IMG/VR virus record: IMGVR_UViG_2681813268_000004
Direction: 5' to 3' (one strand)
Length of the DNA: 31,296 nucleotides
From: a virus
Lineage: Duplodnaviria > Heunggongvirae > Uroviricota > Caudoviricetes
Of this stretch, positions 14,617 to 31,296 are shown piece after piece. How positions within the stretch are numbered: position 1 is the stretch's first letter; every line of letters begins with the position of its first letter. Under the pieces are notes generated by a model, which had not been told where the DNA came from, ran no database searches, and worked only from the letters and a program-made list of their open reading frames with translations. The position numbers and the translations under genes are program-made.

Positions 14617-17600
14617 TCTTGTTATTGACCTGAGTCTGGATGCTGTCCGTTTCGATGAGCAGATGAGCCGGGTAAGGCGTCATTTTTCAGGTCTGGATAC
14701 CGACGCCAGAAAAACCGCCAGTGCTGTTGAACAGGGCCTGAGCCGCCAGGCGCTGGCTGCACAAAAAGCCGGGATTTCCGTCGGGCAGTATAAAGCGGCC
14801 ATGCGAACCCTGCCCGCACAGTTTACGGATATCGCCACGCAGCTTGCCGGTGGTCAGAATCCCTGGCTGATCCTGCTGCAACAGGGCGGTCAGGTGAAGG
14901 ACTCCTTCGGCGGGATGATCCCCATGTTCAGGGGGCTTGCCGGTGCGATCACCCTGCCGATGGTCGGGGTCACCTCGCTGGCGGTGGCGACAGGTGCGCT
15001 GGTGTACGCCTGGTACCAGGGAGATTCCACGCTTTCAGCGTTTAATAAAACGCTGGTCCTTTCCGGCAATCAGGCGGGACTGACGGCAGATCGTATGCTG
15101 GTCCTGTCCAGAGCCGGGCAGGCGGCAGGGCTGACGTTTAACCAGACCAGCGAGTCACTCAGCGCACTGGTTAAGGCGGGGGTAAGCGGTGAGGCTCAGA
15201 TTGCGTCCATCAGCCAGAGTGTGGCGCGTTTCTCCTATGCATCCGGCGTGGAGGTGGACAAGGTCGCTGAAGCCTTCGGGAAGCTGACCACAGACCCGAC
15301 GTCGGGGCTGACGGCGATGGCACGCCAGTTCCATAACGTGACGGCGGAGCAGATTGCGTATGTTGCTCAGTTGCAGCGTTCCGGCGATGAAGCCGGGGCA
15401 TTGCAGGCGGCGAACGAGGCCGCAACGAAAGGGTTTGATGACCAGACCCGCCGCCTGAAAGAGAACATGGGCACGCTGGAGACCTGGGCAGACAGGACTG
15501 CACGTGCATTCAAATCCATGTGGGATGCGGTGCTGGATATTGGTCGTCCTGATACCGCGCAGGAGATGCTGATTAAGGCAGAGGCTGCGTTTAAGAAAGC
15601 AGACGACATCTGGAATCTGCGCAAGGATGATTATTTTGTTAACGATGAAGCGCGGGCGCGTTACTGGGATGATCGTGAAAAGGCCCGTCTTGCGCTTGAA
15701 GCCGCCCGAAAGAAGGCTGAGCAGCAGACTCAACAGGACAAAAATGCGCAGCAGCAGAGCGATACCGAAGCGTCACGGCTGAAATATACCGAAGAGGCGC
15801 AGAAGGCTTACGAACGGCTGCAGACGCCGCTGGAGAAATATACCGCCCGTCAGGAAGAACTGAACAAGGCACTGAAAGACGGGAAAATCCTGCAGGCGGA
15901 TTACAACACGCTGATGGCGGCGGCGAAAAAGGATTATGAAGCGACGCTGAAAAAGCCGAAACAGTCCGGCGTGAAGGTGTCTGCGGGCGATCGTCAGGAA
16001 GACAGTGCTCATGCNTGCATCCGGCGTGGAGGTGGACAAGGTCGCTGAAGCCTTCGGGAAGCTGACCACAGACCCGACGTCGGGGCTGACGGCGATGGCA
16101 CGCCAGTTCCATAACGTGACGGCGGAGCAGATTGCGTATGTTGCTCAGTTGCAGCGTTCCGGCGATGAAGCCGGGGCATTGCAGGCGGCGAACGAGGCCG
16201 CAACGAAAGGGTTTGATGACCAGACCCGCCGCCTGAAAGAGAACATGGGCACGCTGGAGACCTGGGCAGACAGGACTGCACGTGCATTCAAATCCATGTG
16301 GGATGCGGTGCTGGATATTGGTCGTCCTGATACCGCGCAGGAGATGCTGATTAAGGCAGAGGCTGCGTTTAAGAAAGCAGACGACATCTGGAATCTGCGC
16401 AAGGATGATTATTTCGTTAACGATGAAGCACGGGCGCGTTACTGGGATGATCGTGAAAAAAAACGCCTGGAGCGGGATGCAGCCCAAAAGAGGGTAGATC
16501 AACAGCGTCAACAGGACAAAAATGCGCAGCAGCAGAGCGATACCGAAGCGTCACGGCTGAAATATACCGAAGAGGCGCAGAAGGCTTACGAACGGCTGCA
16601 GACGCCGCTGGAGAAATATACCGCCCGTCAGGAAGAACTGAACAAGGCACTGAAAGACGGAAAAATCCTGCAGGCAGATTACAACACGCTGATGGCGGCG
16701 GCGAAAAAGGATTATGAAGCGACGCTGAAAAAGCCGAAACAGTCCGGCGTGAAGGTGTCTGCGGGCGATCGTCAGGAAGACAGTGCTCATGCTGCCCTGC
16801 TGACGCTTCAGGCAGAACTCCGGACGCTGGAGAAGCATGCCGGAGCGAATGAGAAAATCAGCCAGCAGCGCCGGGATTTGTGGAAGGCAGAAAGTCAGTT
16901 CGCGGTACTGGAGGAGGCGGCACAACGTCGCCAGCTGTCCGCACAGGAGAAATCCCTGCTGGCGCATAAAGACGAGACGCTGGAGTACAAACGCCAGCTG
17001 GCTGCACTTGGTGACAAGGTTACGTATCAGGAGCACCTGAATGCGCTGGCGCAGCAGGCGGATAAATTCGCACAGCAGCAACGGGCAAAACGGGCAGCCA
17101 TTGATGCGAAAAACCGGGGGCTGACTGACCGGCAGGCAGCGCGGGAAGCCACGGAACAGCGCCTGAAGGAACAGTATGGCGATAATCCTCTGGCGCTGAA
17201 TAACGTCATGTCAGAGCAGAAAAAGACCTGGGCGGCTGAAGACCAGCTTCGCGGGAGCTGGATGGCAGGCCTGAAGTCCGGCTGGAGTGAGTGGGAAGAG
17301 AGCGCCACGGACAGTATGTCACAGGTTAAAAGTGCAGCCACGCAGACCTTTGATGGTATTGCACAGAATATGGCGGCGATGCTGACCGGCAGTGANGCCC
17401 TGCTGACGCTTCAGGCAGAACTCCGGACGCTGGAGAAGCATGCCGGAGCGAATGAGAAAATCAGCCAGCAGCGCCGGGATTTGTGGAAGGCAGAAAGTCA
17501 GTTCGCGGTACTGGAGGAGGCGGCACAACGTCGCCAGCTGTCCGCACAGGAGAAATCCCTGCTGGCGCATAAAGATGAGACGCTGGAGTACAAACGCCAG

Positions 17601-18539
17601 CTGGCTGCACTTGGCGATAAGGTCACGTATCAGGAGCGCCTGAACGCGCTGGCGCAGCAGGCGGATAAATTCGCACAGCAGCAACGGGCAAAACGGGCCG
17701 CTATTGATGCGAAAAGCCGGGGGCTGACTGACCGGCAGGCAGAACGGGAAGCCACGGAACAGCGCCTGAAGGAACAGTATGGCGATAATCCTCTGGCGCT
17801 GAATAACGTCATGTCAGAGCAGAAAAAGACCTGGGCGGCTGAAGACCTGCTTCGCGGGAGCTGGATGGCAGGCCTCAGGTCCGGCTGGAGCGAGTGGAAA
17901 GAGAGTGCCACGGACAGTATGTCGCAGGTAAAAAGTGCAGCCACGCAGACCTTTGATGGTATTGCGCAGAATATGGCGGCGATGCTGACCGGCAGTGAGC
18001 AGAACTGGCGCAGCTTCACCCGTTCCGTGCTGTCCATGATGACAGAAATTCTGCTTAAGCAGGCAATGGTGGGGATTGTCGGGAGTATTGGCAGCGCCAT
18101 TGGCGGGGCTGTTGGTGGCGGCGCATCAGCGTCAGGCGGTACAGCCATTCAGGCCGCTGCGGCGAAATTCCATTTTGCAACCGGAGGATTTACGGGAACC
18201 GGCGGCAAATATGAGCCAGCGGGGATTGTTCACCGTGGTGAATTTGTCTTCACGAAGGAGGCAACCAGCCGGATTGGCGTGGGAAATCTCTACCGGCTGA
18301 TGCGCGGCTATGCCACCGGCGGTTATGTCGGTGGCACCGGAAGTCCGGCGCAAATGCGGCGTTCAGAGGGTATCAGGTTTGAGCAGAACAACAACGTGGT
18401 GATTCAGAACGACGGTACGAATGGTCTGCCAGGTCCACAGATGATGAAGGCGGTGTATGACATGGCCCGCAAGGGTGCCCGTGATGAAATCCAGGCACAG
18501 ATGCGCGATGGTGGTCTGTTCTCCGGAGGTGGACGATGA
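14597..18539 (+). CDS. H: Tail tape measure protein; the span is inflated by two N-delimited redundant blocks, and the non-redundant length is 2562 nt (853 codons)
   Basis: Position after G-T; conserved C-terminal end overlapping M; Gln/Ala/Lys-rich coiled-coil-like middle. N at 16015 and 17396, each followed by a re-start at an earlier point of the gene. Confidence 0.8.
16016..16792 (+). repeat. Redundant variant copy of H block 15238..16014 (follows the N at 16015)
   Basis: Sequence after the N matches 15238.. at an offset of 778 nt, with a divergent patch (protein DDREKARLALEAARKKAEQQTQQ versus DDREKKRLERDAAQKRVDQQRQQ). Confidence 0.85.
17397..17998 (+). repeat. Redundant variant copy of H block 16794..17395 (follows the N at 17396)
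   Basis: Sequence after the N matches 16794.. at an offset of 603 nt, with scattered SNPs. Confidence 0.85.
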
Positions 18540-18865
18540 AAACCTTCCGCTGGAAAGTGAAACCCGGGATGGATGTGACATCGGCTCCTTCCGTCAGGGA
18601 GGTGCGCTTTGGTGATGGCTATTCCCAGCGTGCGCCTGCCGGGCTGAACGCTGACCTGAAAACGTACAGCGTGACGCTGTCTGTCTCCCGTGAGGAGGCC
18701 ACGGCGCTGGAGTCGTTTCTGGAAGAGCACGGGGGCTGGAAAGCCTTTCTGTGGACGCCGCCTTATGAGTGGCGGCAGATAAAGGTGACCTGCGCAAAAT
18801 GGTCGTCGCGGGTCAGTATGTTGCGTGTTGAGTTCAGCGCAGAGTTTAAACAGGTGGTGAACTGA
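18536..18865 (+). CDS. M: Minor tail protein M
   Basis: 109 aa; MKTFRWKVKPGMDV...PSVR.VRFGDGYSQRAPAGLNA.LKTYSVTLSV.REEAT.LESFLEEHGGWK.FLWTPPYEWRQIKVTCAKWSSRVSML matches lambda gpM by recall. Confidence 0.9.
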   Translation: MKTFRWKVKPGMDVTSAPSVREVRFGDGYSQRAPAGLNADLKTYSVTLSVSREEATALESFLEEHGGWKAFLWTPPYEWRQIKVTCAKWSSRVSMLRVEFSAEFKQVVN

Positions 18866-19563
18866 TGCAGGATATCCGGCAGGAAACACTGAATGAATGC
18901 ACCCGTGCGGAGCAGTCGGCCAGCGTGGTGCTCTGGGAAATCGATCTGACAGAGGTCGGTGGAGAACGTTATTTTTTCTGTAATGAGCAGAACGAAAAAG
19001 GTGAGCCGGTCACCTGGCAGGGGAGGCAGTATCAGGCGTATCCCATTCAGGGGAGCGGTTTTGAACTGAATGGCAAAGGCACCAGTACGCGGCCCACGCT
19101 GGCAGTCTCTAACCTGTACGGCATGGTCACCGGTATGGTGGAAGATATGCAGAGTCTGGTCGGCGGAACGGTGGTCCGGCGTAAGGTTTACGCCCGTTTT
19201 CTGGATGCGGTGAACTTCGTCAACGGAAACAGAGACGCCGATCCGGAGCAGGAGGTGATCAGCCGCTGGCGCATCGAGCAGTGCAGCGAACTGAGCGCGG
19301 TGAGTGCCTCCTTTGTACTGTCCACGCCGACGGAAACGGATGGCGCTGTTTTTCCGGGGCGTATCATGCTGGCCAACACCTGCACCTGGACCTATCGCGG
19401 CGATGAGTGCGGTTATCACGGTCCGGCGGTCGCGGATGAATATGACCAGCCAACGTCCGATATCACGAAGGATAAATGCAGCAAATGCCTGAGCGGTTGT
19501 AAGTTCCGCAATAACGTCGGCAACTTTGGCGGCTTCCTTTCCATTAACAAACTTTCGCAGTAA
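18865..19563 (+). CDS. L: Minor tail protein L (block 1 allele)
   Basis: 232 aa; TGATG overlap with M; cysteine-rich C-terminus (..CTWTYRGDECGY..KCSKCLSGCKFRNN..). Confidence 0.9.
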   Translation: MQDIRQETLNECTRAEQSASVVLWEIDLTEVGGERYFFCNEQNEKGEPVTWQGRQYQAYPIQGSGFELNGKGTSTRPTLAVSNLYGMVTGMVEDMQSLVGGTVVRRKVYARFLDAVNFVNGNRDADPEQEVISRWRIEQCSELSAVSASFVLSTPTETDGAVFPGRIMLANTCTWTYRGDECGYHGPAVADEYDQPTSDITKDKCSKCLSGCKFRNNVGNFGGFLSINKLSQ

Positions 19564-19574
19564 NNNNNNNNNNN
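19564..19574. other. 11-N gap or junction
   Basis: n run read directly; sequence resumes inside M. Confidence 0.95.
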
Positions 19575-19723
19575 TTCTGGAAGAGCACGGGGGCTGGAAA
19601 GCCTTTCTGTGGACGCCGCCTTATGAGTGGCGGCAGATAAAGGTGACCTGCGCAAAATGGTCGTCGCGGGTCAGTATGCTGCGTGTTGAGTTCAGCGCAG
19701 AGTTTGAACAGGTGGTGAACTGA
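19575..19723 (+). CDS. M: M, 3' fragment (5' end cut by the N junction)
   Basis: Matches 18716..18865 of the complete M with one change (K to E near the C-terminus). Confidence 0.6.
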
Positions 19724-20421
19724 TGCAGGATATCCGGCAGGAAACACTGAATGAATGCACCCGTGCGGAGCAGTCGGCCAGCGTGGTGCTCTGGGAAATC
19801 GATCTGACAGAGGTCGGTGGAGAACGTTATTTTTTCTGTAATGAGCAGAACGAAAAAGGTGAGCCGGTCACCTGGCAGGGGCGACAGTATCAGCCGTATC
19901 CCATTCAGGGGAGTGGTTTTGAACTGAATGGCAAAGGCACCAGTACGCGCCCCACGCTGATGGTTTCTAACCTGTACGGTATGGTCACCGGGATGGCGGA
20001 AGATCTACAGAGTCTGGTCGGCGGAACGGTGGTCCGGCGTAAGGTTTACGCCCGTTTTCTGGATGCGGTGAACTTCGTCAACGGAAACAGTGACGCCGAT
20101 CCGGAGCAGGAGGTGATCAGCCGCTGGCGCATTGAGCAGTGCAGCGAACTGAGCGCGGTGAGTGCCTCTTTTGTACTGTCCACGCCGACGGAAACAGATG
20201 GCGCTGTTTTTCCGGGACGTATCATGCTGGCCAACACCTGCACCTGGACCTATCGCGGCGATGAGTGCGGTTATCACGGTCCGGCGGTCGCGGATGAATA
20301 TGACCAGCCAACGTCCGACATCACGAAGGATAAATGCAGCAAATGCCTGAGTGGTTGTAAGTTCCGCAATAACGTCGGCAACTTTGGCGGCTTCCTTTCC
20401 ATTAACAAACTTTCGCAGTAA
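19723..20421 (+). CDS. L: Minor tail protein L (block 2 allele)
   Basis: 232 aa; differs from the block-1 L at a few residues (QAYP/QPYP, TLAVS/TLMVS, GNRD/GNSD). Confidence 0.85.
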   Translation: MQDIRQETLNECTRAEQSASVVLWEIDLTEVGGERYFFCNEQNEKGEPVTWQGRQYQPYPIQGSGFELNGKGTSTRPTLMVSNLYGMVTGMAEDLQSLVGGTVVRRKVYARFLDAVNFVNGNSDADPEQEVISRWRIEQCSELSAVSASFVLSTPTETDGAVFPGRIMLANTCTWTYRGDECGYHGPAVADEYDQPTSDITKDKCSKCLSGCKFRNNVGNFGGFLSINKLSQ

Positions 20422-20426
20422 ATCCC

Positions 20427-21170
20427 ATGACAGAGACAGAATCAGCGATTCTGGCGCACGCCCGGCGATGTGCGCCAGCGGAGTCGTGTGGCTTCGTGGT
20501 AAGAACGCCGGAGGGAGACAGGTATCTTCCCAGCGAGAATATCTCCGGTGAGCCGGAGGAACGGTTCCGGATGGCTCCGGAGGACTGGCTGCGGGCACAA
20601 ATGCAGGGTGAGATTGTGGCGCTGGTCCACAGTCATCCCGGTGGTCTGCCCTGGCTGAGTGAGGCTGACCGGCGGCTGCAGGTGCAGAGTGATTTGCCGT
20701 GGTGGCTGGTCTGCCGGGGGGCGATTCACAAGTTCCGCTGTGTGCCGCATCTCACCGGGCGGCGCTTTGAGCACGGGGTGACGGACTGTTACACGCTGTT
20801 CCGGGATGCTTATCATCTGGCAGGGATTGAGATGCCGGATTTTCATCGCGGGGATGACTGGTGGCGTAACGGTCAGAATCTCTATCTTGACAATATGGAG
20901 GTGACGGGTTTTTACCGTGTCGCACTGACAGAGGCACAGCCGGGCGATGTGCTGCTGTGCTGTTTTGGTTCATCGGTGCCGAATCATGCCGCCATTTACT
21001 GTGGTGACGGCGAGCTGCTGCACCATATTCCTGAACAACTGAGCAAACGAGAGAGGTACACCGACAAATGGCAGCGACGCACACACTCCCTCTGGCGTCA
21101 CCGGGCATGGCGCGCATCTGCCTTTACGGGGATTTACAACGATTTGGTCGCCGCATCGACCTTCGTGTGA
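20427..21170 (+). CDS. K: Tail tip assembly protein K; JAMM/MPN metalloprotease-like N-domain plus NlpC/P60-like C-domain
   Basis: 247 aa; JAMM motif E..HSHPGGLPWLSEAD (H-x-H-x7-S-x2-D) and a Cys/His pair (DCYTLF ... NHAAIY) read directly. Confidence 0.85.
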   Translation: MTETESAILAHARRCAPAESCGFVVRTPEGDRYLPSENISGEPEERFRMAPEDWLRAQMQGEIVALVHSHPGGLPWLSEADRRLQVQSDLPWWLVCRGAIHKFRCVPHLTGRRFEHGVTDCYTLFRDAYHLAGIEMPDFHRGDDWWRNGQNLYLDNMEVTGFYRVALTEAQPGDVLLCCFGSSVPNHAAIYCGDGELLHHIPEQLSKRERYTDKWQRRTHSLWRHRAWRASAFTGIYNDLVAASTFV

Positions 21171-21709
21171 AAACGGGGGCTGAAGCCATCCGGGCACTGG
21201 CCACACAGCTCCCGGCGTTTCGTCAGAAACTGAGTGACGGCTGGTATCAGGTGCGCATTGCCGGGCGTGATGCAGGTGAAACCGAATTGTCTGCCCGTCT
21301 TAATGAGCCGCTGGCAAATGGTGCAGTGATCCACATAGTACCGCGTCTGGTGGGAGCTAAAAGTGGCGGTGTGTTTCAGGCGGTGCTGGGGGCGGCTGTT
21401 ATGGCGGTTGCTATATGGATGCCGGGGGTAGGAATTATGGCGAGTAATCTGCTGTTTTCTCTCGGTGCCAGTATGACGCTTGGCGGTGTTGCACAGATGC
21501 TGGCACCGAAAGCCAGAACTCCCCGTACACAGACAACGGATAACGGTAAGCAGAACACGTATTTCTCGTCACTGGATAACATGGTTGCCCAGGGCAATGT
21601 TCTGCCCGTTCTGTACGGTGAAATGCGCGTGGGGTCACGTGTGGTTTCTCAGGAGATCAGCACGGCAGACGAAGGGGATGGTGGTCAGGTTGTGGTGATT
21701 GGTCGCTGA
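21068..21709 (+). CDS. I: Tail tip assembly protein I (allele with ..DAGETELSARLNEPLANG.. centre)
   Basis: 213 aa; starts inside the 3' end of K in another frame; conserved N-terminus MAATHTLPLASPGMARICLYGDLQRFGRRIDL and C-terminus ..GEMRVGSRVVSQEISTADEGDGGQVVVIGR. Confidence 0.85.
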   Translation: MAATHTLPLASPGMARICLYGDLQRFGRRIDLRVKTGAEAIRALATQLPAFRQKLSDGWYQVRIAGRDAGETELSARLNEPLANGAVIHIVPRLVGAKSGGVFQAVLGAAVMAVAIWMPGVGIMASNLLFSLGASMTLGGVAQMLAPKARTPRTQTTDNGKQNTYFSSLDNMVAQGNVLPVLYGEMRVGSRVVSQEISTADEGDGGQVVVIGR

Positions 21710-21769
21710 TGCAAAATGTTTTATGTGAAACCGCCTGCGGGCGGTTTTGTCGTTTATGGAGCGTGAGGA

Positions 21770-22371
21770 ATGGGTAAAGGCAGCAGTAAGGGGCATACCC
21801 CGCGCGAAGCGAAGGACAACCTGAAATCCACGCAGTTGCTGAGTGTGATTGATGCCATCAGCGAAGGGCCGGTTGACGGTCCGGTGGATGGATTAAAAAG
21901 CGTGCTGCTGAACGGTACGCCGGTCCTGGACAGCGAGGGGAAGACAAACTTTTCCGGTGTTACGGTGGTGTTCCGTGCAGGTGAGCAGGAGCAGACACCG
22001 CCGGAGGGTTTTGAATCCTCCGGCTCCGAGACGGTGCTGGGTACGGAAGTGAAATATGACACGCCGATCACCCGGACCATCACGTCGGCAAACATCGACC
22101 GTCTGCGCCTGACCTTCGGTGTGCAGGCACTGGTGGAAACCACCTCAAAGGGTGACCGGAATCCGTCGGAAGTCCGCCTGCTGGTTCAGATACAGCGTAA
22201 CGGTGGCTGGGTGACGGAAAAAGACATCACCATTAAGGGCAAAACCACTTCGCAGTATCTGGCCTCGGTGGTGGTGGGTAACCTGCCGCCGCGCCCGTTT
22301 AATATCCGGATGCGCAGGATGACACCGGACAGCACCACAGACCAGCTGCAGAACAAAACGCTCTGGTCGTC
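21770..22371 (+). CDS. J: Tail tip / host-specificity protein J, 5' fragment (cut by N gap)
   Basis: MGKGSSKGHTPREAKDNLKSTQLLSVIDAISEGP.. matches the lambda gpJ N-terminus by recall; preceded by a ccgcc-tgcg-ggcgg hairpin. Confidence 0.8.
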
Positions 22372-22382
22372 NNNNNNNNNNN
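22372..22382. other. 11-N gap or junction
   Basis: n run read directly; sequence resumes at the same internal M position as after the first gap. Confidence 0.95.
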
Positions 22383-22531
22383 TTCTGGAAGAGCACGGGG
22401 GCTGGAAAGCCTTTCTGTGGACGCCGCCTTATGAGTGGCGGCAGATAAAGGTGACCTGCGCAAAATGGTCGTCGCGGGTCAGTATGCTGCGTGTTGAGTT
22501 CAGCGCAGAGTTTGAACAGGTGGTGAACTGA
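22383..22531 (+). CDS. M: M, 3' fragment (second redundant copy)
   Basis: Same sequence as 19575..19723. Confidence 0.6.
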
Positions 22532-23229
22532 TGCAGGATATCCGGCAGGAAACACTGAATGAATGCACCCGTGCGGAGCAGTCGGCCAGCGTGGTGCTCT
22601 GGGAAATCGATCTGACAGAGGTCGGTGGAGAACGTTATTTTTTCTGTAATGAGCAGAACGAAAAAGGTGAGCCGGTCACCTGGCAGGGGCGACAGTATCA
22701 GCCGTATCCCATTCAGGGGAGTGGTTTTGAACTGAATGGCAAAGGCACCAGTACGCGCCCCACGCTGATGGTTTCTAACCTGTACGGTATGGTCACCGGG
22801 ATGGCGGAAGATCTACAGAGTCTGGTCGGCGGAACGGTGGTCCGGCGTAAGGTTTACGCCCGTTTTCTGGATGCGGTGAACTTCGTCAACGGAAACAGTG
22901 ACGCCGATCCGGAGCAGGAGGTGATCAGCCGCTGGCGCATTGAGCAGTGCAGCGAACTGAGCGCGGTGAGTGCCTCTTTTGTACTGTCCACGCCGACGGA
23001 AACAGATGGCGCTGTTTTTCCGGGACGTATCATGCTGGCCAACACCTGCACCTGGACCTATCGCGGCGATGAGTGCGGTTATCACGGTCCGGCGGTCGCG
23101 GATGAATATGACCAGCCAACGTCCGACATCACGAAGGATAAATGCAGCAAATGCCTGAGTGGCTGTAAGTTTCGCAATAACGTCGGCAACTTTGGCGGCT
23201 TCCTTTCCATTAACAAACTTTCGCAGTAA
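22531..23229 (+). CDS. L: Minor tail protein L (block 3; protein identical to block 2)
   Basis: 232 aa; same translation as 19723..20421. Confidence 0.85.
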   Translation: MQDIRQETLNECTRAEQSASVVLWEIDLTEVGGERYFFCNEQNEKGEPVTWQGRQYQPYPIQGSGFELNGKGTSTRPTLMVSNLYGMVTGMAEDLQSLVGGTVVRRKVYARFLDAVNFVNGNSDADPEQEVISRWRIEQCSELSAVSASFVLSTPTETDGAVFPGRIMLANTCTWTYRGDECGYHGPAVADEYDQPTSDITKDKCSKCLSGCKFRNNVGNFGGFLSINKLSQ

Positions 23230-23234
23230 ATCCC

Positions 23235-23978
23235 ATGACAGAGACAGAATCAGCGATTCTGGCGCACGCCCGGCGATGTGCTCCAGCGGAGTCGTGCGGC
23301 TTCGTGGTAAGAACGCCGGAGGGGGAAAGATATTTCCCCTGCGTGAATATCTCCGGTGAGCCGGAGGCGTATTTCCGTATGTCGCCGGAAGACTGGCTGC
23401 AGGCAGAGATGCAGGGTGAGATTGTGGCACTGGTCCACAGCCACCCCGGTGGTCTGCCCTGGCTGAGTGAGGCCGACCGGCGGCTGCAGGTGCAGAGTGA
23501 TTTGCCGTGGTGGCTGGTCTGCCGGGGGGCGATTCACAAGTTCCGCTGTGTGCCACATCTTACCGGGCGGCGCTTTGAGCACGGGGTGACGGACTGTTAC
23601 ACGCTGTTCCGGGATGCTTACCATCTGGCGGGGATTGAGATGCCGGATTTTCATCGTGAGGATGACTGGTGGCGTCACGGTCAGAATCTCTATCTGGATA
23701 ATCTGGAGGCCACAGGGCTGTATCAGGTGCCGTTGTCAGCGGCGCAGCCGGGCGATGTGCTGCTGTGCTGTTTTGGTTCATCGGTGCCGAATCATGCCGC
23801 CATTTACTGTGGTGACGGCGAGCTGCTGCACCATATTCCTGAACAACTGAGCAAACGAGAGAGGTATACCGACAAATGGCAGCGACGCACACACTCCCTC
23901 TGGCGTCACCGGGCATGGCACGCATCTGCCTTTACGGGGATTTGCAACGATTTGGCCGCCGCATCGACCTTCGTGTGA
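23235..23978 (+). CDS. K: Tail tip assembly protein K (block 3 allele)
   Basis: 247 aa; same JAMM and Cys/His motifs; differs from block 2 in patches (EGERYFPCVNISGEPEAYFRMSPEDWLQAEMQ versus EGDRYLPSENISGEPEERFRMAPEDWLRAQMQ). Confidence 0.85.
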   Translation: MTETESAILAHARRCAPAESCGFVVRTPEGERYFPCVNISGEPEAYFRMSPEDWLQAEMQGEIVALVHSHPGGLPWLSEADRRLQVQSDLPWWLVCRGAIHKFRCVPHLTGRRFEHGVTDCYTLFRDAYHLAGIEMPDFHREDDWWRHGQNLYLDNLEATGLYQVPLSAAQPGDVLLCCFGSSVPNHAAIYCGDGELLHHIPEQLSKRERYTDKWQRRTHSLWRHRAWHASAFTGICNDLAAASTFV

Positions 23979-24547
23979 AAACGGGTGCCGAAGCCATCCG
24001 GGCGATGGCCACACAGCTCCCTGCGTTTCGTCAGAAGCTGAGCGACGGCTGGTATCAGGTGCGTATTGCCGGGCAGGATGTTAGCACGTCCGGATTAACG
24101 GCACAGTTACATGAGGCTCTGCCTGACGGCGCTGTGATTCATATTGTTCCCAGAGTCGCCGGGGCCAAGTCAGGTGGTGTATTCCAGATTGTCCTGGGAG
24201 CAGCCGCCATTGCCGGATCATTCTTTACCGCCGGAGCCACCCTTGCAGCATGGGGGGCTGCCATTGGTGCCGGTGGTATGACCGGCATTCTGTTTTCTCT
24301 CGGTGCCAGTATGGTGCTCGGCGGTGTGGCTCAGATGCTGGCACCGAAAGCCAGAACTCCCCGCACACAGACAACGGATAACGGTAAGCAGAACACCTAT
24401 TTCTCCTCACTGGATAACATGGTTGCCCAGGGCAATGTTATGCCTGTTCTGTATGGTGAAATGCGCGTGGGGTCACGTGTGGTATCTCAGGAGATCAGCA
24501 CGGCAGACGAAGGGGACGGTGGTCAGGTTGTGGTGATTGGTCGCTGA
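23876..24547 (+). CDS. I: Tail tip assembly protein I (allele with ..DVSTSGLTAQLHEALPDG.. centre)
   Basis: 223 aa; conserved ends, divergent glycine/alanine-rich hydrophobic middle. Confidence 0.85.
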   Translation: MAATHTLPLASPGMARICLYGDLQRFGRRIDLRVKTGAEAIRAMATQLPAFRQKLSDGWYQVRIAGQDVSTSGLTAQLHEALPDGAVIHIVPRVAGAKSGGVFQIVLGAAAIAGSFFTAGATLAAWGAAIGAGGMTGILFSLGASMVLGGVAQMLAPKARTPRTQTTDNGKQNTYFSSLDNMVAQGNVMPVLYGEMRVGSRVVSQEISTADEGDGGQVVVIGR

Positions 24548-24607
24548 TGCAAAATGTTTTATGTGAAATCGCCTCCGGGCGGTTTTATCGTTTATGGAGC
24601 ATGACGA

Positions 24608-24832
24608 ATGGGTAAAGGCAGCAGTAAGGGGCATACCCCGCGCGAAGCGAAGGACAACCTGAAGTCCACGCAGCTGCTGAGTGTGATCGATGCCATCAGC
24701 GAAGGGCCGGTTGAAGGTCCGGTGGATGGATTAAAAAGCGTGCTGCTGAACAGTACGCCGGTGCTGGACAGTGAGGGGAATACCAACATCTCCGGCGTCA
24801 CGGTGGTGTTCCGGGCAGGTGAGCAGGAGCAG
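24608..24832 (+). CDS. J: J, 5' fragment (cut by the N at 24833)
   Basis: Begins MGKGSSKGHTPREAK..; ends at the N junction, after which the sequence is mid-K. Confidence 0.7.
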
Positions 24833-24833
24833 N

Positions 24834-25367
24834 CCCGGTGGTCTGCCCTGGCTGAGTGAGGCTGACCGGCGGCTGCAGGTGCAGAGTGATTTGCCGTGGT
24901 GGCTGGTCTGCCGGGGGGCGATTCATAAGTTCCGCTGTGTGCCGCATCTCACCGGGCGGCGCTTTGAGCACGGGGTGACGGACTGTTACACGCTGTTCCG
25001 GGATGCTTATCATCTGGCGGGGATTGAGATGCCGAATTTTCATCGCGGGGATGACTGGTGGCGTCACGGTCAGAATCTCTATCTTGACAATATGGAGGCT
25101 ACTGGTTTTTACCGTGTCGCACTGACAGAGGCGCAGCCGGGCGATGTGCTGCTGTGCTGTTTTGGTTCATCGGTGCCGAATCATGCCGCCATTTACTGTG
25201 GTGACGGCGAGCTGCTGCACCATATTCCTGAACAACTGAGCAAACGAGAGAGGTATACCGACAAATGGCAGCGACGCACACACTCCCTCTGGCGTCACCG
25301 GGCATGGCACGCATCTGCCTTTACGGGGATTTGCAACGATTTGGCCGCCGCATCGACCTTCGTGTGA
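24834..25367 (+). CDS. K: K, 3' fragment (begins at ..PGGLPWLSEADRR.. after the N junction)
   Basis: In-frame continuation of the K C-terminal two-thirds; the listed ORF 24771..25367 is a J-K chimera across the N. Confidence 0.6.
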   Translation, partial: PGGLPWLSEADRRLQVQSDLPWWLVCRGAIHKFRCVPHLTGRRFEHGVTDCYTLFRDAYHLAGIEMPNFHRGDDWWRHGQNLYLDNMEATGFYRVALTEAQPGDVLLCCFGSSVPNHAAIYCGDGELLHHIPEQLSKRERYTDKWQRRTHSLWRHRAWHASAFTGICNDLAAASTFV

Positions 25368-25936
25368 AAACGGGTGCCGAAGCCATCCGGGCGATGGCCA
25401 CACAGCTCCCTGCGTTTCGTCAGAAGCTGAGCGACGGCTGGTATCAGGTGCGTATTGCCGGGCAGGATGTTAGCACGTCCGGATTAACGGCACAGTTACA
25501 TGAGGCTCTGCCTGACGGCGCTGTGATTCATATTGTTCCCAGAGTCGCCGGGGCCAAGTCAGGTGGTGTATTCCAGATTGTCCTGGGAGCAGCCGCCATT
25601 GCCGGATCATTCTTTACCGCCGGAGCCACCCTTGCAGCATGGGGGGCTGCCATTGGTGCCGGTGGTATGACCGGCATTCTGTTTTCTCTCGGTGCCAGTA
25701 TGGTGCTCGGCGGTGTGGCTCAGATGCTGGCACCGAAAGCCAGAACTCCCCGCACACAGACAACGGATAACGGTAAGCAGAACACCTATTTCTCCTCACT
25801 GGATAACATGGTTGCCCAGGGCAATGTTATGCCTGTTCTGTATGGTGAAATGCGCGTGGGGTCACGTGTGGTATCTCAGGAGATCAGCACGGCAGACGAA
25901 GGGGACGGTGGTCAGGTTGTGGTGATTGGTCGCTGA
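25265..25936 (+). CDS. I: Tail tip assembly protein I (same allele as 23876..24547)
   Basis: 223 aa; translation identical to the block-3 I. Confidence 0.85.
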   Translation: MAATHTLPLASPGMARICLYGDLQRFGRRIDLRVKTGAEAIRAMATQLPAFRQKLSDGWYQVRIAGQDVSTSGLTAQLHEALPDGAVIHIVPRVAGAKSGGVFQIVLGAAAIAGSFFTAGATLAAWGAAIGAGGMTGILFSLGASMVLGGVAQMLAPKARTPRTQTTDNGKQNTYFSSLDNMVAQGNVMPVLYGEMRVGSRVVSQEISTADEGDGGQVVVIGR

Positions 25937-25996
25937 TGCAAAATGTTTTATGTGAAATCGCCTCCGGGCGGTTTTATCGTTTATGGAGCATGACGA

Positions 25997-26655
25997 ATGG
26001 GTAAAGGCAGCAGTAAGGGGCATACCCCGCGCGAAGCGAAGGACAACCTGAAGTCCACGCAGCTGCTGAGTGTGATCGATGCCATCAGCGAAGGGCCGGT
26101 TGAAGGTCCGGTGGATGGATTAAAAAGCGTGCTGCTGAACAGTACGCCGGTGCTGGACAGTGAGGGGAATACCAACATCTCCGGCGTCACGGTGGTGTTC
26201 CGGGCAGGTGAGCAGGAGCAGTCACCGCCGGAGGGATTTGAATCCTCCGGCTCCGAGACGGTGCTGGGTACGGAAGTGAAATATGACACGCCGATCACCC
26301 GGACCATCACGTCGGCAAACATTGACCGACTGCGTTTTACCTTCGGTGTACAGGCACTGGTGGAAACCACCTCAAAGGGAGACAGGAATCCGTCTGAAGT
26401 TCGCCTGCTGGTTCAGATACAGCGTAACGGTGGCTGGGTGACGGAAAAAGACATCACCATTAAGGGCAAAACCACCTCGCAGTATCTGGCCTCGGTGGTG
26501 GTGGATAACCTGCCGCCGCGCCCGTTTAATATCCGGATGCGCAGAATGACGCCGGACAGCACCACAGACCAGCTGCAGAACAAAACGCTCTGGTCGTCAT
26601 ACACCGAAATCATCGATGTGAAACAGTGCTACCCGAACACGGCACTGGTCGGCGT
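25997..26655 (+). CDS. J: J, 5' fragment (cut by the N at 26656)
   Basis: gpJ N-terminal 219 codons. Confidence 0.7.
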
Positions 26656-26656
26656 N

Positions 26657-26894
26657 GGCGCAGCCGGGCGATGTGCTGCTGTGCTGTTTTGGTTCATCGG
26701 TGCCGAATCATGCCGCCATTTACTGTGGTGACGGCGAGCTGCTGCACCATATTCCTGAACAACTGAGCAAACGAGAGAGGTACACCGACAAATGGCAGCG
26801 ACGCACACACTCCCTCTGGCGTCACCGGGCATGGCACGCATCTGCCTTTACGGGGATTTGCAACGATTTGGCCGCCGCATCGACCTTCGTGTGA
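26657..26894 (+). CDS. K: K, 3' fragment (begins at ..AQPGDVLLCCFGSS.. after the N junction)
   Basis: In-frame K C-terminal 79 codons. Confidence 0.55.
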
Positions 26895-27433
26895 AAACGG
26901 GGGCTGAAGCCATCCGGGCACTGGCCACACAGCTCCCGGCGTTTCGTCAGAAACTGAGCGATGGCTGGTATCAGGTACGGATTGCCGGGCGGGATGCAGG
27001 AGAAACCGAATTATCATCCCGTCTTAATGAGCCGCTGGCAAATGGTGCCGTGATCCACATCGTGCCGCGTCTTGCGGGAGCAAAAAGTGGCGGTGTGTTT
27101 CAGGCGGTGCTGGGTGCGGCGTTGATTGCTACGGCAATCTGGATGCCGGGGATCAGTATCGCTTTCAGTGACATTCTCTTTTCAATGGGTGCGGCGATGA
27201 CGCTTGGTGGTGTGGCGCAGATGCTGGCACCGAAAGCCAGAACTCCCCGTACACAGACAACGGATAACGGCAAACAGAACACCTATTTCTCCTCACTGGA
27301 TAACATGGTTGCCCAGGGCAATGTCCTGCCTGTTCTGTACGGTGAAATGCGCGTGGGGTCACGTGTGGCATCTCAGGAGATCAGCACGGCAGATGAAGGG
27401 GATGGTGGTCAGGTTGTGGTAATTGGGCGGTAA
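26792..27433 (+). CDS. I: Tail tip assembly protein I (third allele; centre ..AALIATAIWMPGISIAFSDILFSMGAAMTLGG..)
   Basis: 213 aa; conserved ends with a distinct central hydrophobic segment. Confidence 0.85.
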   Translation: MAATHTLPLASPGMARICLYGDLQRFGRRIDLRVKTGAEAIRALATQLPAFRQKLSDGWYQVRIAGRDAGETELSSRLNEPLANGAVIHIVPRLAGAKSGGVFQAVLGAALIATAIWMPGISIAFSDILFSMGAAMTLGGVAQMLAPKARTPRTQTTDNGKQNTYFSSLDNMVAQGNVLPVLYGEMRVGSRVASQEISTADEGDGGQVVVIGR

Positions 27434-27506
27434 TATTATTTTACTCATGTTCTAACTGATTTAATATTTATATCGAACACTGATAATTATTCTATTGGTT
27501 AGCTAT

Positions 27507-27845
27507 ATGAACAAAACGATTTTATTCTGCACGATTATTGCCTTAACAGGATGTAAATCTTTGGATTACGTAAAATCCGGAAAACCTGTAATGGAAGGTA
27601 ATTCATTAAAAAATATTGATGAATTGTCAGGCTGCATATCCAGACAATGGGCTGGTAATGGAACACCTATAACATCCCTTCCTATTGAGAATGGGGTAAG
27701 CCTTTTAGTTCCACAGGCTATGGGGGGATATGATGTTGTGCTTGATATCAAAAAAGCAGGAAATGGCAGTAGTTTTACTCTTTATGAACGTGTACCAGCA
27801 TTAACGCCAAAAATTTTTGCTGATAGTGTTAATGCATGTAAATAA
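27507..27845 (+). CDS. Predicted lipoprotein (moron) inserted between I and J; 112 aa precursor with lipobox LTGC
   Basis: ATG 27507; signal peptide MNKTILFCTIIALTGC with Cys16 and Lys at +2; visibly AT-rich island 27434-27911 (the only one in the window); followed by hairpin gagccgcc tttt gggcggct and a T-rich run before J. Confidence 0.65.
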   Translation: MNKTILFCTIIALTGCKSLDYVKSGKPVMEGNSLKNIDELSGCISRQWAGNGTPITSLPIENGVSLLVPQAMGGYDVVLDIKKAGNGSSFTLYERVPALTPKIFADSVNACK

Positions 27846-27911
27846 TAGTTAATCCTGTCGTAACTCATGAGCCGCCTTTTGGGCGGCTTTGTTGTTTATG
27901 GAGTGTGAGGA

Positions 27912-28756
27912 ATGGGTAAAGGAAGCAGTAAGGGGCATACCCCGCGCGAAGCGAAGGACAACCTGAAGTCCACGCAGCTGCTGAGTGTGATCGATGCCAT
28001 CAGCGAAGGGCCGGTTGAAGGTCCGGTGGATGGATTAAAAAGCGTGCTGCTGAACAGTACGCCGGTGCTGGACACTGAGGGGAATACCAACATCGCCGGT
28101 GTCACGGTGGTGTTCCGTGCCGGTGAGCAGGAGCAGACACCGCCGGAGGGGTTTGAATCTTCCGGCTCCGAGACGGTGCTGGGTACGGAAGTGAAATACG
28201 ACACGCCGATCACCCGGACTATCACGTCTGCAAACATCGACCGTCTGCGCTTTACCTTCGGTGTGCAGGCACTGGTGGAAACCACCTCAAAGGGGGACCG
28301 GAATCCGTCGGAAGTCCGCCTGCTGGTTCAGATACAGCGTAATGGTGGCTGGGTGACGGAAAAAGACATCACCATTAAGGGCAAAACCACCTCGCAGTAT
28401 CTGGCCTCGGTGGTGGTGGATAACCTGCCGCCGCGCCCGTTCAATATACGGATGCGCAGGATGACGCCGGACAGCACCACAGACCAGCTGCAGAACAAAA
28501 CGCTCTGGTCGTCATACACCGAAATCATCGATGTGAAACAGTGCTACCCGAACACGGCACTGGTCGGCGTGCAGGTGGATTCGGAGCAGTTCGGCAGCCA
28601 GCAGGTGAGCCGTAATTATCATCTGCGCGGGCGTATTCTGCAGGTGCCGTCGAATTATAACCCGCAGACGCGGCAATACAGCGGTATCTGGGACGGAACG
28701 TTTAAACCGGCATACAGCAACAACATGGCCTGGTGTCTGTGGGATATGCTGACCCA
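27912..28756 (+). CDS. J: J, 5' fragment (cut by the N at 28757)
   Basis: gpJ N-terminal 281 codons; the listed 446-aa ORF 27912..29252 is a J-K chimera across the N. Confidence 0.7.
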
Positions 28757-28757
28757 N

Positions 28758-29252
28758 CTGCAGGTGCAGAGTGATTTGCCGTGGTGGCTGGTCTGCCGGG
28801 GGGCGATTCACAAGTTCCGCTGTGTGCCACATCTTACCGGGCGGCGCTTTGAGCACGGGGTGACGGACTGTTACACGCTGTTCCGGGATGCTTACCATCT
28901 GGCGGGGATTGAGATGCCGGATTTTCATCGTGAGGATGACTGGTGGCGTCACGGTCAGAATCTCTATCTGGATAATCTGGAGGCCACAGGGCTGTATCAG
29001 GTGCCGTTGTCAGCGGCGCAGCCGGGCGATGTGCTGCTGTGCTGTTTTGGTTCATCGGTGCCGAATCATGCCGCCATTTACTGTGGTGACGGCGAGCTGC
29101 TGCACCATATTCCTGAACAACTGAGCAAACGAGAGAGGTATACCGACAAATGGCAGCGACGCACACACTCCCTCTGGCGTCACCGGGCATGGCACGCATC
29201 TGCCTTTACGGGGATTTGCAACGATTTGGCCGCCGCATCGACCTTCGTGTGA
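28758..29252 (+). CDS. K: K, 3' fragment (begins at ..LQVQSDLPWWLV.. after the N junction)
   Basis: In-frame K C-terminal 164 codons, same allele as block 3. Confidence 0.55.
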   Translation: MQVQSDLPWWLVCRGAIHKFRCVPHLTGRRFEHGVTDCYTLFRDAYHLAGIEMPDFHREDDWWRHGQNLYLDNLEATGLYQVPLSAAQPGDVLLCCFGSSVPNHAAIYCGDGELLHHIPEQLSKRERYTDKWQRRTHSLWRHRAWHASAFTGICNDLAAASTFV

Positions 29253-29821
29253 AAACGGGTGCCGAAGCCATCCGGGCGATGGCCACACAGCTCCCTGCGT
29301 TTCGTCAGAAGCTGAGCGACGGCTGGTATCAGGTGCGTATTGCCGGGCAGGATGTTAGCACGTCCGGATTAACGGCACAGTTACATGAGGCTCTGCCTGA
29401 CGGCGCTGTGATTCATATTGTTCCCAGAGTCGCCGGGGCCAAGTCAGGTGGTGTATTCCAGATTGTCCTGGGAGCAGCCGCCATTGCCGGATCATTCTTT
29501 ACCGCCGGAGCCACCCTTGCAGCATGGGGGGCTGCCATTGGTGCCGGTGGTATGACCGGCATTCTGTTTTCTCTCGGTGCCAGTATGGTGCTCGGCGGTG
29601 TGGCTCAGATGCTGGCACCGAAAGCCAGAACTCCCCGCACACAGACAACGGATAACGGTAAGCAGAACACCTATTTCTCCTCACTGGATAACATGGTTGC
29701 CCAGGGCAATGTTATGCCTGTTCTGTATGGTGAAATGCGCGTGGGGTCACGTGTGGTATCTCAGGAGATCAGCACGGCAGACGAAGGGGACGGTGGTCAG
29801 GTTGTGGTGATTGGTCGCTGA
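29150..29821 (+). CDS. I: Tail tip assembly protein I (same allele as 23876..24547)
   Basis: 223 aa; identical translation. Confidence 0.85.
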   Translation: MAATHTLPLASPGMARICLYGDLQRFGRRIDLRVKTGAEAIRAMATQLPAFRQKLSDGWYQVRIAGQDVSTSGLTAQLHEALPDGAVIHIVPRVAGAKSGGVFQIVLGAAAIAGSFFTAGATLAAWGAAIGAGGMTGILFSLGASMVLGGVAQMLAPKARTPRTQTTDNGKQNTYFSSLDNMVAQGNVMPVLYGEMRVGSRVVSQEISTADEGDGGQVVVIGR

Positions 29822-29881
29822 TGCAAAATGTTTTATGTGAAATCGCCTCCGGGCGGTTTTATCGTTTATGGAGCATGACGA

Positions 29882-31296
29882 ATGGGTAAAGGCAGCAGTA
29901 AGGGGCATACCCCGCGCGAAGCGAAGGACAACCTGAAGTCCACGCAGCTGCTGAGTGTGATCGATGCCATCAGCGAAGGGCCGGTTGAAGGTCCGGTGGA
30001 TGGATTAAAAAGCGTGCTGCTGAACAGTACGCCGGTGCTGGACAGTGAGGGGAATACCAACATCTCCGGCGTCACGGTGGTGTTCCGGGCAGGTGAGCAG
30101 GAGCAGTCACCGCCGGAGGGATTTGAATCCTCCGGCTCCGAGACGGTGCTGGGTACGGAAGTGAAATATGACACGCCGATCACCCGGACCATCACGTCGG
30201 CAAACATTGACCGACTGCGTTTTACCTTCGGTGTACAGGCACTGGTGGAAACCACCTCAAAGGGAGACAGGAATCCGTCTGAAGTTCGCCTGCTGGTTCA
30301 GATACAGCGTAATGGTGGCTGGGTGACGGAAAAAGACATCACCATTAAGGGCAAAACCACCTCGCAGTATCTGGCCTCGGTGGTGGTGGATAACCTGCCG
30401 CCGCGCCCGTTCAATATACGGATGCGCAGGATGACGCCGGACAGCACCACAGACCAGCTGCAGAACAAAACGCTCTGGTCGTCATACACCGAAATCATCG
30501 ATGTGAAACAGTGCTACCCGAACACGGCACTGGTCGGCGTACAGGTGGATTCGGAGCAGTTCGGCAGCCAGCAGGTGAGCCGTAATTATCATCTTCGCGG
30601 GCGCATTCTGCAGGTGCCGTCGAACTATAATCCGCAGACGCGGCAATACAGCGGTATCTGGGACGGAACGTTAAAACCGGCATACAGCAACAACATGGCC
30701 TGGTGTCTGTGGGATATGCTGACCCATCCGCGCTATGGCATGGGGAAACGTCTTGGTGCGGCAGATGTGGATAAATGGGCGCTGTATGTCATCGGCCAGT
30801 ACTGTGACCAGTCGGTGCCGGACGGCTTTGGCAGCACGGAGCCGCGCATCACCTGTAATGCCTGGCTGACCACACAGCGCAAGGCGTGGGATGTGCTCAG
30901 TGATTTCTGCTCGGCGATGCGCTGTATGCCGGTATGGAACGGGCAGACGCTGACGTTCGTGCAGGACCGACCGTCGGATAAGGTGTGGACCTATAACCGC
31001 AGTAATGTGGTGATGCCGGATGATGGCGCGCCGTTCCGCTACAGTTTCAGCGCCCTGAAAGACCGCCATAATGCCGTTGAGGTGAACTGGATTGACCCGG
31101 ATAACGGCTGGGAGACGGCGACAGAGCTTGTGGAGGATACGCAGGCCATTGTCCGTTACGGTCGTAACGTCACGAAGATGGATGCCTTTGGCTGTACCAG
31201 CCGGGGGCAGGCACACCGCGCCGGGCTGTGGCTGATTAAAACTGAACTGCTGGAGACGCAGACCGTGGATTTCAGCGTGGGTGCTGAAGGGCTTCG
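29882..31296 (+). CDS. J: Tail tip / host-specificity protein J, 5' portion; continues beyond the window end
   Basis: ATG 29882 after the I-J hairpin; open frame to 31296 with no stop; colinear recalled similarity to lambda gpJ (..WCLWDMLTHPRYGMGKRLGAADVDKWALYVIGQYCDQSVPDGFG..). Confidence 0.85.
   Translation, partial: MGKGSSKGHTPREAKDNLKSTQLLSVIDAISEGPVEGPVDGLKSVLLNSTPVLDSEGNTNISGVTVVFRAGEQEQSPPEGFESSGSETVLGTEVKYDTPITRTITSANIDRLRFTFGVQALVETTSKGDRNPSEVRLLVQIQRNGGWVTEKDITIKGKTTSQYLASVVVDNLPPRPFNIRMRRMTPDSTTDQLQNKTLWSSYTEIIDVKQCYPNTALVGVQVDSEQFGSQQVSRNYHLRGRILQVPSNYNPQTRQYSGIWDGTLKPAYSNNMAWCLWDMLTHPRYGMGKRLGAADVDKWALYVIGQYCDQSVPDGFGSTEPRITCNAWLTTQRKAWDVLSDFCSAMRCMPVWNGQTLTFVQDRPSDKVWTYNRSNVVMPDDGAPFRYSFSALKDRHNAVEVNWIDPDNGWETATELVEDTQAIVRYGRNVTKMDAFGCTSRGQAHRAGLWLIKTELLETQTVDFSVGAEGL

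What the first reader, a model, noticed from the sequence alone, without database searches (positions are those of the whole stretch)
18536..31296. Tail-tip module M-L-K-I-J is tiled six times as overlapping, non-identical blocks joined at N characters
After the complete M-L pair (18536-19563) the sequence runs: 11 N; a block restarting mid-M (19575) through L, K, I and 200 codons of J; 11 N; a block restarting at the same mid-M point (22383) through L, K, I and 75 codons of J; N at 24833; mid-K through I and 219 codons of J; N at 26656; mid-K through I, a lipoprotein gene and 281 codons of J; N at 28757; mid-K through I and J to the window end. The junctions fall inside codons and create chimeric ORFs (for example the listed 27912..29252 J-K fusion). 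The copies differ by SNPs and allelic patches, so they are not one sequence repeated; they look like paralogous tail modules from several related prophages, or reads or contigs of a repeat family, concatenated into one record. A real five-fold tandem array of truncated tail genes would be non-functional and is implausible.
Basis: seen in the sequence. Interest (0 to 1): 0.65.

Follow-up and report, generated by a model that had tools for sequence, protein, structure and literature searches.

The report
Scaffolding artefact in prophage tail genes
The apparent six-fold array of phage tail-tip genes is not a real structure: a draft short-read assembly laid overlapping contigs from several related prophages end to end, with an N at every joint, so it matters only as a source of bogus fusion genes in databases.

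Summary
The window is the whole of one draft WGS scaffold (GCA_001260755.1, CXEW01000055.1, 31,296 bp). It consists of nine blocks separated by eight N runs. Three of these (1062, 16015, 17396) lie upstream of the flagged region. At all eight joints the next block restarts 475-2,797 bp back in gene order. Every internal block end sits in a stretch of 47-1,349 nt shared exactly with another block, as expected for assembly-graph branch points in a repeat family. One intact prophage in complete E. coli genomes (AF20; APEC E12049) has a single M-L-K-I-lipoprotein-J module. It threads the scaffold as S1 -> S3 (100%) -> 214 nt missing -> first 296 nt of S6 (100%) -> S7 (99.95%). The other blocks are paralogous alleles, and S4 and S6 switch haplotype at shared stretches. 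None of 5,426 complete E. coli genomes has an alignment crossing the two J->mid-K joints tested, and no IMG/VR contig carries the two joint sequences searched. About 9.7 kb of the scaffold is redundant, and its chimeric ORFs were called as genes. Verdict: not a biological feature; interest is low.

The parts
1..1061 (+). Block S0: paralogous copy of the esterase 3' end and holin region. Its last 475 bp re-align to the start of S1 at 99.2%.
   Evidence: maps to reference L001 6995-8056 at 94.5%
1062..1062 (.). Single-N joint; S1 restarts 475 bp back.
1063..16014 (+). Block S1: backbone prophage from lysis genes and terminase to mid tape measure. It is near-identical to the AF20 prophage except for a ~96% patch at 7282-11782. 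It ends at reference base 23225.
16015..16015 (.). Single-N joint; S2 restarts 777 bp back.
16016..17395 (+). Block S2: paralogous tape-measure allele (96.7% to the backbone) placed on the one-base seam between S1 and S3. It creates the split tape-measure ORFs 14597-16048 and 16005-18539.
17396..17396 (.). Single-N joint; S3 restarts 602 bp back.
17397..19563 (+). Block S3: backbone tape-measure 3' end, M and L. It is 100% identical to AF20 prophage L001 23227-25393 and ends on the L stop codon.
19564..19574 (.). 11-N joint; S4 restarts 847 bp back, in mid-M.
19575..22371 (+). Block S4: a hybrid. The first 780 nt (M end and L) are identical to S5. K-I-J' (20440-22371) is 99.9% identical to a different lineage (CP023645/CP019689 type). 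The switch lies at a 69-nt stretch shared exactly with the end of S3.
22372..22382 (.). 11-N joint; S5 restarts at the same mid-M base as S4.
22383..24832 (+). Block S5: third allele, M'-L-K-I-J (75 codons). Its last 1,349 nt are identical to the start of S8, so S5 and S8 are one sequence.
24833..24833 (.). Single-N joint; S6 restarts 1,388 bp back, in mid-K.
24834..26655 (+). Block S6: a hybrid. The first 296 nt are the backbone K segment (0 differences to reference 25608-25903). The next 1,092 nt are identical to S5/S8. The J end has 4 private differences.
26656..26656 (.). Single-N joint; S7 restarts in mid-K.
26657..28756 (+). Block S7: backbone K 3' end, I, lipoprotein ORF (27507-27845) and J (281 codons). 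It is 100% identical to APEC E12049 and AF20 by megablast, with 1 mismatch in 2,100 nt to AF20 in local BLAST. It starts at reference 25904, directly after the backbone head of S6.
28757..28757 (.). Single-N joint; S8 restarts upstream of the S7 start. It creates the chimeric J-K ORF 27912-29252.
28758..31296 (+). Block S8: continuation of the S5 allele, K'-I-J, running to the end of the scaffold.

Best explanation
The window is one scaffold of a short-read draft assembly of an E. coli-like genome that carries several lambdoid prophages (at least three distinct K-I-J alleles, plus further paralogous alleles of the tape-measure and lysis regions). Their tail genes are 83-100% identical in patches. 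The assembly graph therefore breaks wherever two prophages share an exact stretch. A read-pair scaffolder then chained the resulting contigs, allelic alternatives of the same genes, into one line. Because consecutive contigs 'overlap' without being mergeable, each joint was written as a residual gap (1 N or 11 N). Edge extension by a gap filler probably lengthened the flanks and let them switch haplotype in shared stretches. The real locus is one ordinary prophage with a single M-L-K-I-lipoprotein-J module. Shown: the scaffold origin, the overlap geometry, the exact-repeat termini, the identity of S3, the head of S6 and S7 to an intact single-copy prophage, and the absence of the tested adjacencies in complete genomes. 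Inferred: the software steps (Velvet/SSPACE/GapFiller-type pipeline).
For:: the window equals the entire record GCA_001260755.1:CXEW01000055.1 (31,296 bp), and the chimeric J-K ORF occurs on no other contig in the collection; 8 of 8 N runs are joints where the next block restarts 475-2,797 bp back, at 83-100% identity; all 16 internal block termini lie in stretches of 47-1,349 nt shared exactly with another block; complete genomes AF20 and APEC E12049 hold one intact prophage with single-copy M-L-K-I-hyp-J. S3 has 0 mismatches in 2,167 nt, S7 has 1 in 2,100, and the S6 head has 0 in 296. S1 ends at reference 23225 and S3 starts at 23227, and S7 starts at the base after the S6 head. S4 and S6 switch haplotype at shared stretches; of 5,426 complete E. 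coli genomes, none has a single alignment across joints 26656 or 28757, and the two-piece hits are in natural K->J order; the two joint sequences searched (at 24833 and 16015) have 0 hits in 2.9 M IMG/VR contigs; an unrelated draft (L063) shows the same single-N overlap joint in the same module. PMC5320598 and PMC3446322 describe greedy SSPACE/GapFiller joins written as N gaps, edge extension by majority vote, closure only if the extensions merge, and removal of contigs shorter than 300-500 nt. That last rule fits the missing 214-nt backbone piece.
Against: No reads or assembly graph were available, so the adjacency was not refuted directly. The pipeline used for this assembly could not be confirmed: the accession was not found in the literature or in the held supplement. 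Two gap sizes (1 N and 11 N) imply two joining rules that I could not tie to specific software. S4 and S6 could be genuine recombinant prophages rather than assembly hybrids.
Confidence: 0.96

Rival explanations
1. Reference-guided tiling: contigs were ordered along a reference prophage by a contig-ordering tool and abutted with N spacers, rather than linked by read pairs.
For: In reference coordinates the block starts increase monotonically (6995, 7581, 22449, 23227, 24547, 24547, 25608, 25904) with one exception, S8 at 25647. S4 and S5 start at the same base. The fixed 11-N spacer looks like a constant rather than a size estimate.
Against: S8 is out of order by start. Two different spacer lengths need two rules. 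Read-pair scaffolding also yields a left-to-right order. This is still an artefact, so the biological conclusion is unchanged.
Confidence: 0.25
2. The isolate was a mixture of strains, or the sample was contaminated, and the blocks are alleles of the same prophage from different cells rather than paralogues within one genome.
For: Overlapping 97-99% alleles of one locus (S0/S1, S1/S2/S3) are also what a mixed culture gives.
Against: E. coli genomes carry a median of 3 and up to 14 such tail modules, so paralogy within one genome is sufficient. The alleles differ by up to 17% with gene-content differences, such as the lipoprotein ORF found only in S7, which is typical of different prophages. 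This could not be tested without read depth.
Confidence: 0.05
3. A genuine tandem array of truncated tail-tip cassettes exists in the genome.
For: Only the order of blocks in the record. Genuine tandem duplication of this module does occur: CP019689.1 has two full copies.
Against: The genuine case consists of complete modules at 99.96% identity, bounded by IS copies, with no N. Here every joint is an N, the blocks are truncated at exact-repeat boundaries, and no mobile element or microhomology is seen at the joints. None of 5,426 complete genomes shows the adjacency at the two joints tested. The backbone blocks are collinear with an intact single-copy prophage.
Confidence: 0.01

Closest known systems
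Scaffolding or gap-filling mis-joins of collapsed repeat families in short-read bacterial drafts (SSPACE/GapFiller-type 'false joins'; PMC5320598, PMC3446322)
   Same: N at every joint. Consecutive contigs overlap without merging. Contig ends lie at exact-repeat boundaries. Flanks switch haplotype. A short unique piece is missing. The setting is multiple lambdoid prophages, the classic unresolvable repeat in E. coli drafts.
   Different: The specific pipeline is not confirmed for this assembly. Eight successive joints in one 31-kb scaffold is an unusually dense example.
Lambda-like tail-tip module M-L-K-I-J of E. coli prophages (for example the AF20 / APEC E12049 prophage next to the trp operon)
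   Same: The gene order, Pfam families and sequence of blocks S1, S3, the head of S6 and S7 match it (100% for S3 and the S6 head, 99.95% for S7; S1 near-identical outside one ~96% patch), including the small lipoprotein ORF between I and J.
   Different: The real module is single-copy and uninterrupted. The scaffold adds about 9.7 kb of paralogous alleles between its parts and lacks 214 nt of K.
IS-bounded tandem duplication of the tail-tip module in complete genome CP019689.1
   Same: The same gene family is repeated head to tail.
   Different: That case has whole modules, 99.96% identical copies, a 9,417-bp period, an IS element at each boundary and no N. The window shares none of these features.

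Membership tests
Assembly or scaffolding artefact (linearised repeat tangle) | The sequence comes from a draft scaffold, and every discontinuity coincides with a gap character | tested here: met
   the whole record is a WGS scaffold; 8 of 8 N runs are joints, and no joint lacks an N
Assembly or scaffolding artefact (linearised repeat tangle) | Block ends lie at boundaries of sequence shared exactly with other copies (graph branch points) | tested here: met
   all 16 internal termini have 47-1,349 nt exact matches in another block
Assembly or scaffolding artefact (linearised repeat tangle) | A subset of blocks reconstitutes a normal single-copy locus known from finished genomes | tested here: met
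   S1 -> S3 -> S6 head -> S7 are collinear with the AF20 prophage (S3 and the S6 head 100%, S7 99.95%, S1 near-identical outside one ~96% patch), with a one-base seam between S1 and S3 and one 214-nt gap
Assembly or scaffolding artefact (linearised repeat tangle) | The claimed adjacencies are absent from finished genomes | tested here: met
   0 of 5,426 complete E. coli genomes, two joints tested; 0 IMG/VR contigs, two joints searched
Assembly or scaffolding artefact (linearised repeat tangle) | No reads span the joints, and read depth shows collapsed or multi-copy sequence | not testable with these tools
Lambda-like tail-tip module (M, L, K, I, J) | Pfam families Phage_min_tail, Phage_tail_L, JAB + NlpC/P60, Lambda_tail_I and GpJ domains, in that order | tested here: met
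Genuine tandem gene amplification | Continuous sequence across the repeat junctions, with a recombination substrate (IS or direct repeat) at the boundaries | tested here: not met
   (N at every junction and no IS); contrast (a genuine IS-bounded duplication)

The most novel reading that the evidence does not exclude
The blocks are physically real: a chromosomal array of silent, truncated K-I-J cassettes downstream of an expressed tail module, acting as donors for gene conversion that varies the tail-tip or host-range protein J, analogous to cassette-based antigenic variation. A milder version is that S4 is a true recombinant prophage combining an E. coli-type M-L with a Shigella-lineage K-I-J.
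Probability: 0.01. Interest if true: 0.75.

Novelty: not a real feature. Interest (0 to 1): 0.06.

Why it matters
It has no biological importance. Practically, it is a clean and dense example of how multi-prophage genomes corrupt short-read scaffolds. About 31% of this scaffold is redundant. The tape measure, K and J genes are split or fused, and at least four chimeric ORFs were called as genes and entered public protein collections: the 446-aa J-K, the 253-aa J-M, the 244-aa J-K and the 842-aa tape measure. Anyone mining such records for novel tail-fibre architectures, gene amplifications or prophage counts would be misled. A simple filter would flag such records automatically: N runs whose flanks re-align to each other.

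Tried and rejected
(1) I looked for the source and for block-specific matches in IMG/VR and GTDB genomes with block-specific 32-mers. The k-mers proved to be common alleles and the source was not there. The source was found instead by exact look-up of the chimeric ORF. (2) I searched the literature and the held supplement of the Sanger pipeline paper for the accession and found nothing, so the pipeline attribution stays an inference. (3) I looked in the GapFiller paper for an explicit 'single N' rule; the only hit was the abbreviation SNP. (4) I considered that the two-piece '>=80% coverage' hits might be real J->K adjacencies. Inspection showed natural K->J order with deletions. (5) I considered that S4's lack of any full-length match above 95.9% might mean a novel module. 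It resolves into two known alleles joined at a shared 69-mer. (6) The single N's in L038 and L152 were checked as further examples and are not overlap joints. (7) CP019689.1 could not be opened in the annotated collections.
Full report
OBSERVATION. The window contains eight runs of N: single N's at 1062, 16015, 17396, 24833, 26656 and 28757, and 11-N runs at 19564-19574 and 22372-22382. Cutting at the N's gives nine blocks: S0 1-1061, S1 1063-16014, S2 16016-17395, S3 17397-19563, S4 19575-22371, S5 22383-24832, S6 24834-26655, S7 26657-28756 and S8 28758-31296.

Pfam confirms the gene names: M (Phage_min_tail), L (Phage_tail_L), K (Prok-JAB + NLPC_P60), I (Lambda_tail_I) and J (FNIII-A_GpJ, Phage-tail_3). 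The small ORF between I and J in S7 begins MNKTILFCTIIALTG|C, a standard lipobox. It matches PHROG 914, of unknown function.

THE TILING COVERS THE WHOLE WINDOW. A self-BLAST of the blocks shows that at every one of the eight joints the following block restarts upstream in gene order:
- S0/S1: 475 bp at 99.2%
- S1/S2: 777 bp at 97.0%
- S2/S3: 602 bp at 96.7%
- S3/S4 and S3/S5: 847 bp at about 97%
- S4/S5: same start base, 91.8% over 2.45 kb
- S5/S6: 1,388 bp at 98.2%
- S6/S7 and S7/S8: 83-96%

The tape-measure gene is therefore tiled as well. It is split into ORFs 14597-16048 and 16005-18539, and the region is 1,381 nt too long.

Not all overlaps are non-identical. S4 and S5 share their first 780 nt exactly. 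The last 1,349 nt of S5 equal the first 1,349 nt of S8. The last 1,092 nt of S5 equal S6 25130-26221.

ORIGIN. An exact look-up of the chimeric 446-aa J-K ORF finds a single contig: NCBI GCA_001260755.1, record CXEW01000055.1, length 31,296 bp. The window is therefore a complete scaffold of a draft WGS assembly. The gene calls on that record include the chimeras (253-aa J-M, 244-aa J-K, 446-aa J-K and the 842-aa tape-measure piece).

WHAT THE REAL LOCUS LOOKS LIKE. S7 matches two complete E. coli chromosomes at 100% (APEC O78:H4 E12049 and blood isolate AF20). These are the same two records that give the best hit for the 15-kb block S1. The AF20 region (L001) is an ordinary lambdoid prophage next to the trp operon. 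It has one copy each of tape measure, M, L, K, I, a 112-aa hypothetical protein (the lipoprotein), J, lom and tail fibre genes.

Local alignment to L001 gives:
- S3 has 0 mismatches in 2,167 nt (reference 23227-25393, ending on the L stop codon).
- S7 has 1 mismatch in 2,100 nt (reference 25904-28003).
- S1 has 1 mismatch over 4282-7282 and 3 over 11782-16014, with a ~96% patch between them. It ends at reference 23225, one base short of the start of S3.
- The first 296 nt of S6 have 0 differences to reference 25608-25903. That is the segment ending at the base before S7 begins.

The backbone prophage therefore threads the scaffold as S1 -> S3 -> (214 nt of K, reference 25394-25607, absent) -> head of S6 -> S7. 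Everything else is extra: S0, S2, S4, S5, the rest of S6, and S8. The window spans reference 6995-28573 (21.6 kb) but is 31.3 kb long, so about 9.7 kb is redundant.

WHAT THE EXTRA BLOCKS ARE. They are other alleles of the same genes.
- S5 and S8 together are one sequence (100% overlap). Its best full-length match in complete genomes is 98.1%.
- S4 has no full-length match above 95.9% among about 15,000 tail modules in 5,426 genomes. It resolves into two parts. The first 780 nt are identical to S5. K-I-J' has 2 mismatches in 1,932 nt to modules in CP023645, CP019689 and CP022455. The natural M-L of that second lineage is only about 80-86% similar to this window's S3 and S5 alleles. The switch lies at a 69-nt stretch that is also the exact end of S3.
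- S6 likewise switches from the backbone to the S5/S8 type within a stretch shared by all alleles.
- All 16 internal block termini lie in stretches of 47-1,349 nt shared exactly with another block. This is what contig ends look like at branch points of an assembly graph in a repeat family.
- In the K-I-J core there are three distinct haplotypes (backbone, S4, S5/S6/S8), plus private J differences in S6 and separate paralogues for the tape measure (S2) and the lysis region (S0).

Several lambdoid prophages in one genome is normal: E. coli genomes have a median of 3 and up to 14 such modules.

IS THE ADJACENCY REAL ANYWHERE? Six-hundred-base queries centred on joints 26656 and 28757 find no single alignment crossing the joint in 5,426 complete E. 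coli genomes. The few 'full coverage' places are two pieces joined by the tool. On inspection they are in the natural K->J order, in a degraded remnant and in a prophage with an N-terminally truncated J. Patterns spanning the joints at 24833 and 16015 have no match in 2.9 million IMG/VR contigs. A pattern N does match a literal N, at least in local scope.

A genuine tandem duplication of this module does exist in complete genome CP019689.1. It has two whole M-L-K-I-J-lom modules, 99.96% identical, with a 9,417-bp period, IS copies at the boundaries and no N. The window has none of these properties. An independent draft in IMG/VR (L063, UViG 2695420698_000002) shows the same single-N joint with overlapping flanks (729 nt, 94.5%) in the same module. 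The artefact therefore recurs.

MECHANISM (INFERRED). Several prophages share patches of identical sequence longer than the k-mer or the read, so contigs end at those patches. Read pairs from all copies map into the shared patches. A greedy scaffolder then links allelic contigs in series. Because the contigs 'overlap' but cannot be merged, a residual gap is written.

The widely used Sanger pipeline is described as Velvet, then SSPACE, then 120 iterations of GapFiller. Its authors call these 'greedy algorithms' that 'can lead to false joins'. Joins are written as N gaps, and contigs below 300-500 nt are dropped (PMC5320598). GapFiller extends both gap edges base by base by majority vote. It closes a gap only if the extensions overlap by at least 10 nt and the inserted length fits the estimated gap (PMC3446322).

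In a repeat family this would give lengthened, overlapping, non-identical flanks that switch haplotype around a leftover N, and it would lose a 214-nt unique piece. Both are seen here. I could not confirm that this assembly came from that pipeline. The coexistence of 1-N and 11-N joints implies two joining rules that I cannot assign to specific tools. A reference-guided contig orderer is a viable alternative for some joints, because block starts are almost monotonic in reference coordinates. Either way it is an artefact.

COMPARISON AND VERDICT. The real content is an ordinary lambda-like prophage plus fragments of its paralogues. The 'six-fold array' is a linearised repeat tangle. It should be extended to the whole scaffold, with the caveat that S4 and S6 are hybrids and cannot each be assigned to one locus.

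The residual probability that the array is physical is about 1%. If real, it would be interesting as a cassette array for tail-tip variation. Interest as it stands is low. The value of the result lies in flagging the record and its chimeric proteins.

Noticed in passing
window 27507-27845 (+): A 112-aa lipoprotein ORF (lipobox LTG|C) sits between tail genes I and J of the backbone prophage. It matches PHROG 914 (unknown function), has no Pfam hit, and is annotated as hypothetical protein WP_001332187.1 in the intact AF20 prophage. Its position next to the receptor-binding protein suggests a moron, perhaps for superinfection exclusion.
   Followed up: partly
L164+L165 (CP019689.1 4621455-4651513): A complete genome carries an apparently genuine tandem duplication of the entire M-L-K-I-J-lom module: period 9,417 bp, 99.96% identity over 10.7 kb, with a ~1.27-kb IS copy at each of the three boundaries and no N. 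The neighbouring IpaH-type gene in a related locus (L162) suggests a Shigella-lineage host.
   Followed up: partly
L063 (IMGVR_UViG_2695420698_000002), N at locus position 898: An independent draft isolate genome has the same artefact in the same tail module: a single N whose flanks overlap (729 nt, 94.5%). Its blocks are 98.8-100% identical to window blocks S4 and S5.
   Followed up: partly
window 7282-11782: Within block S1, the portal, protease, decoration and capsid genes form a ~96% divergent patch relative to the AF20 prophage, while both flanks are almost identical to it (1 and 3 mismatches). This is either natural mosaicism or another haplotype switch made by the assembler.
   Followed up: no
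window 16005-18539, 21770-22531, 24608-24859, 25997-26731, 27912-29252: Chimeric ORFs spanning N joints were called as genes in the public record, so they sit in protein databases as apparent novel fusions (tape measure, J-M, J-K).
   Followed up: yes
window 1-1538: The esterase 3' end and holin region is present twice, in S0 and at the start of S1, with 475 bp overlapping at 99.2%, across the N at 1062.
   Followed up: yes
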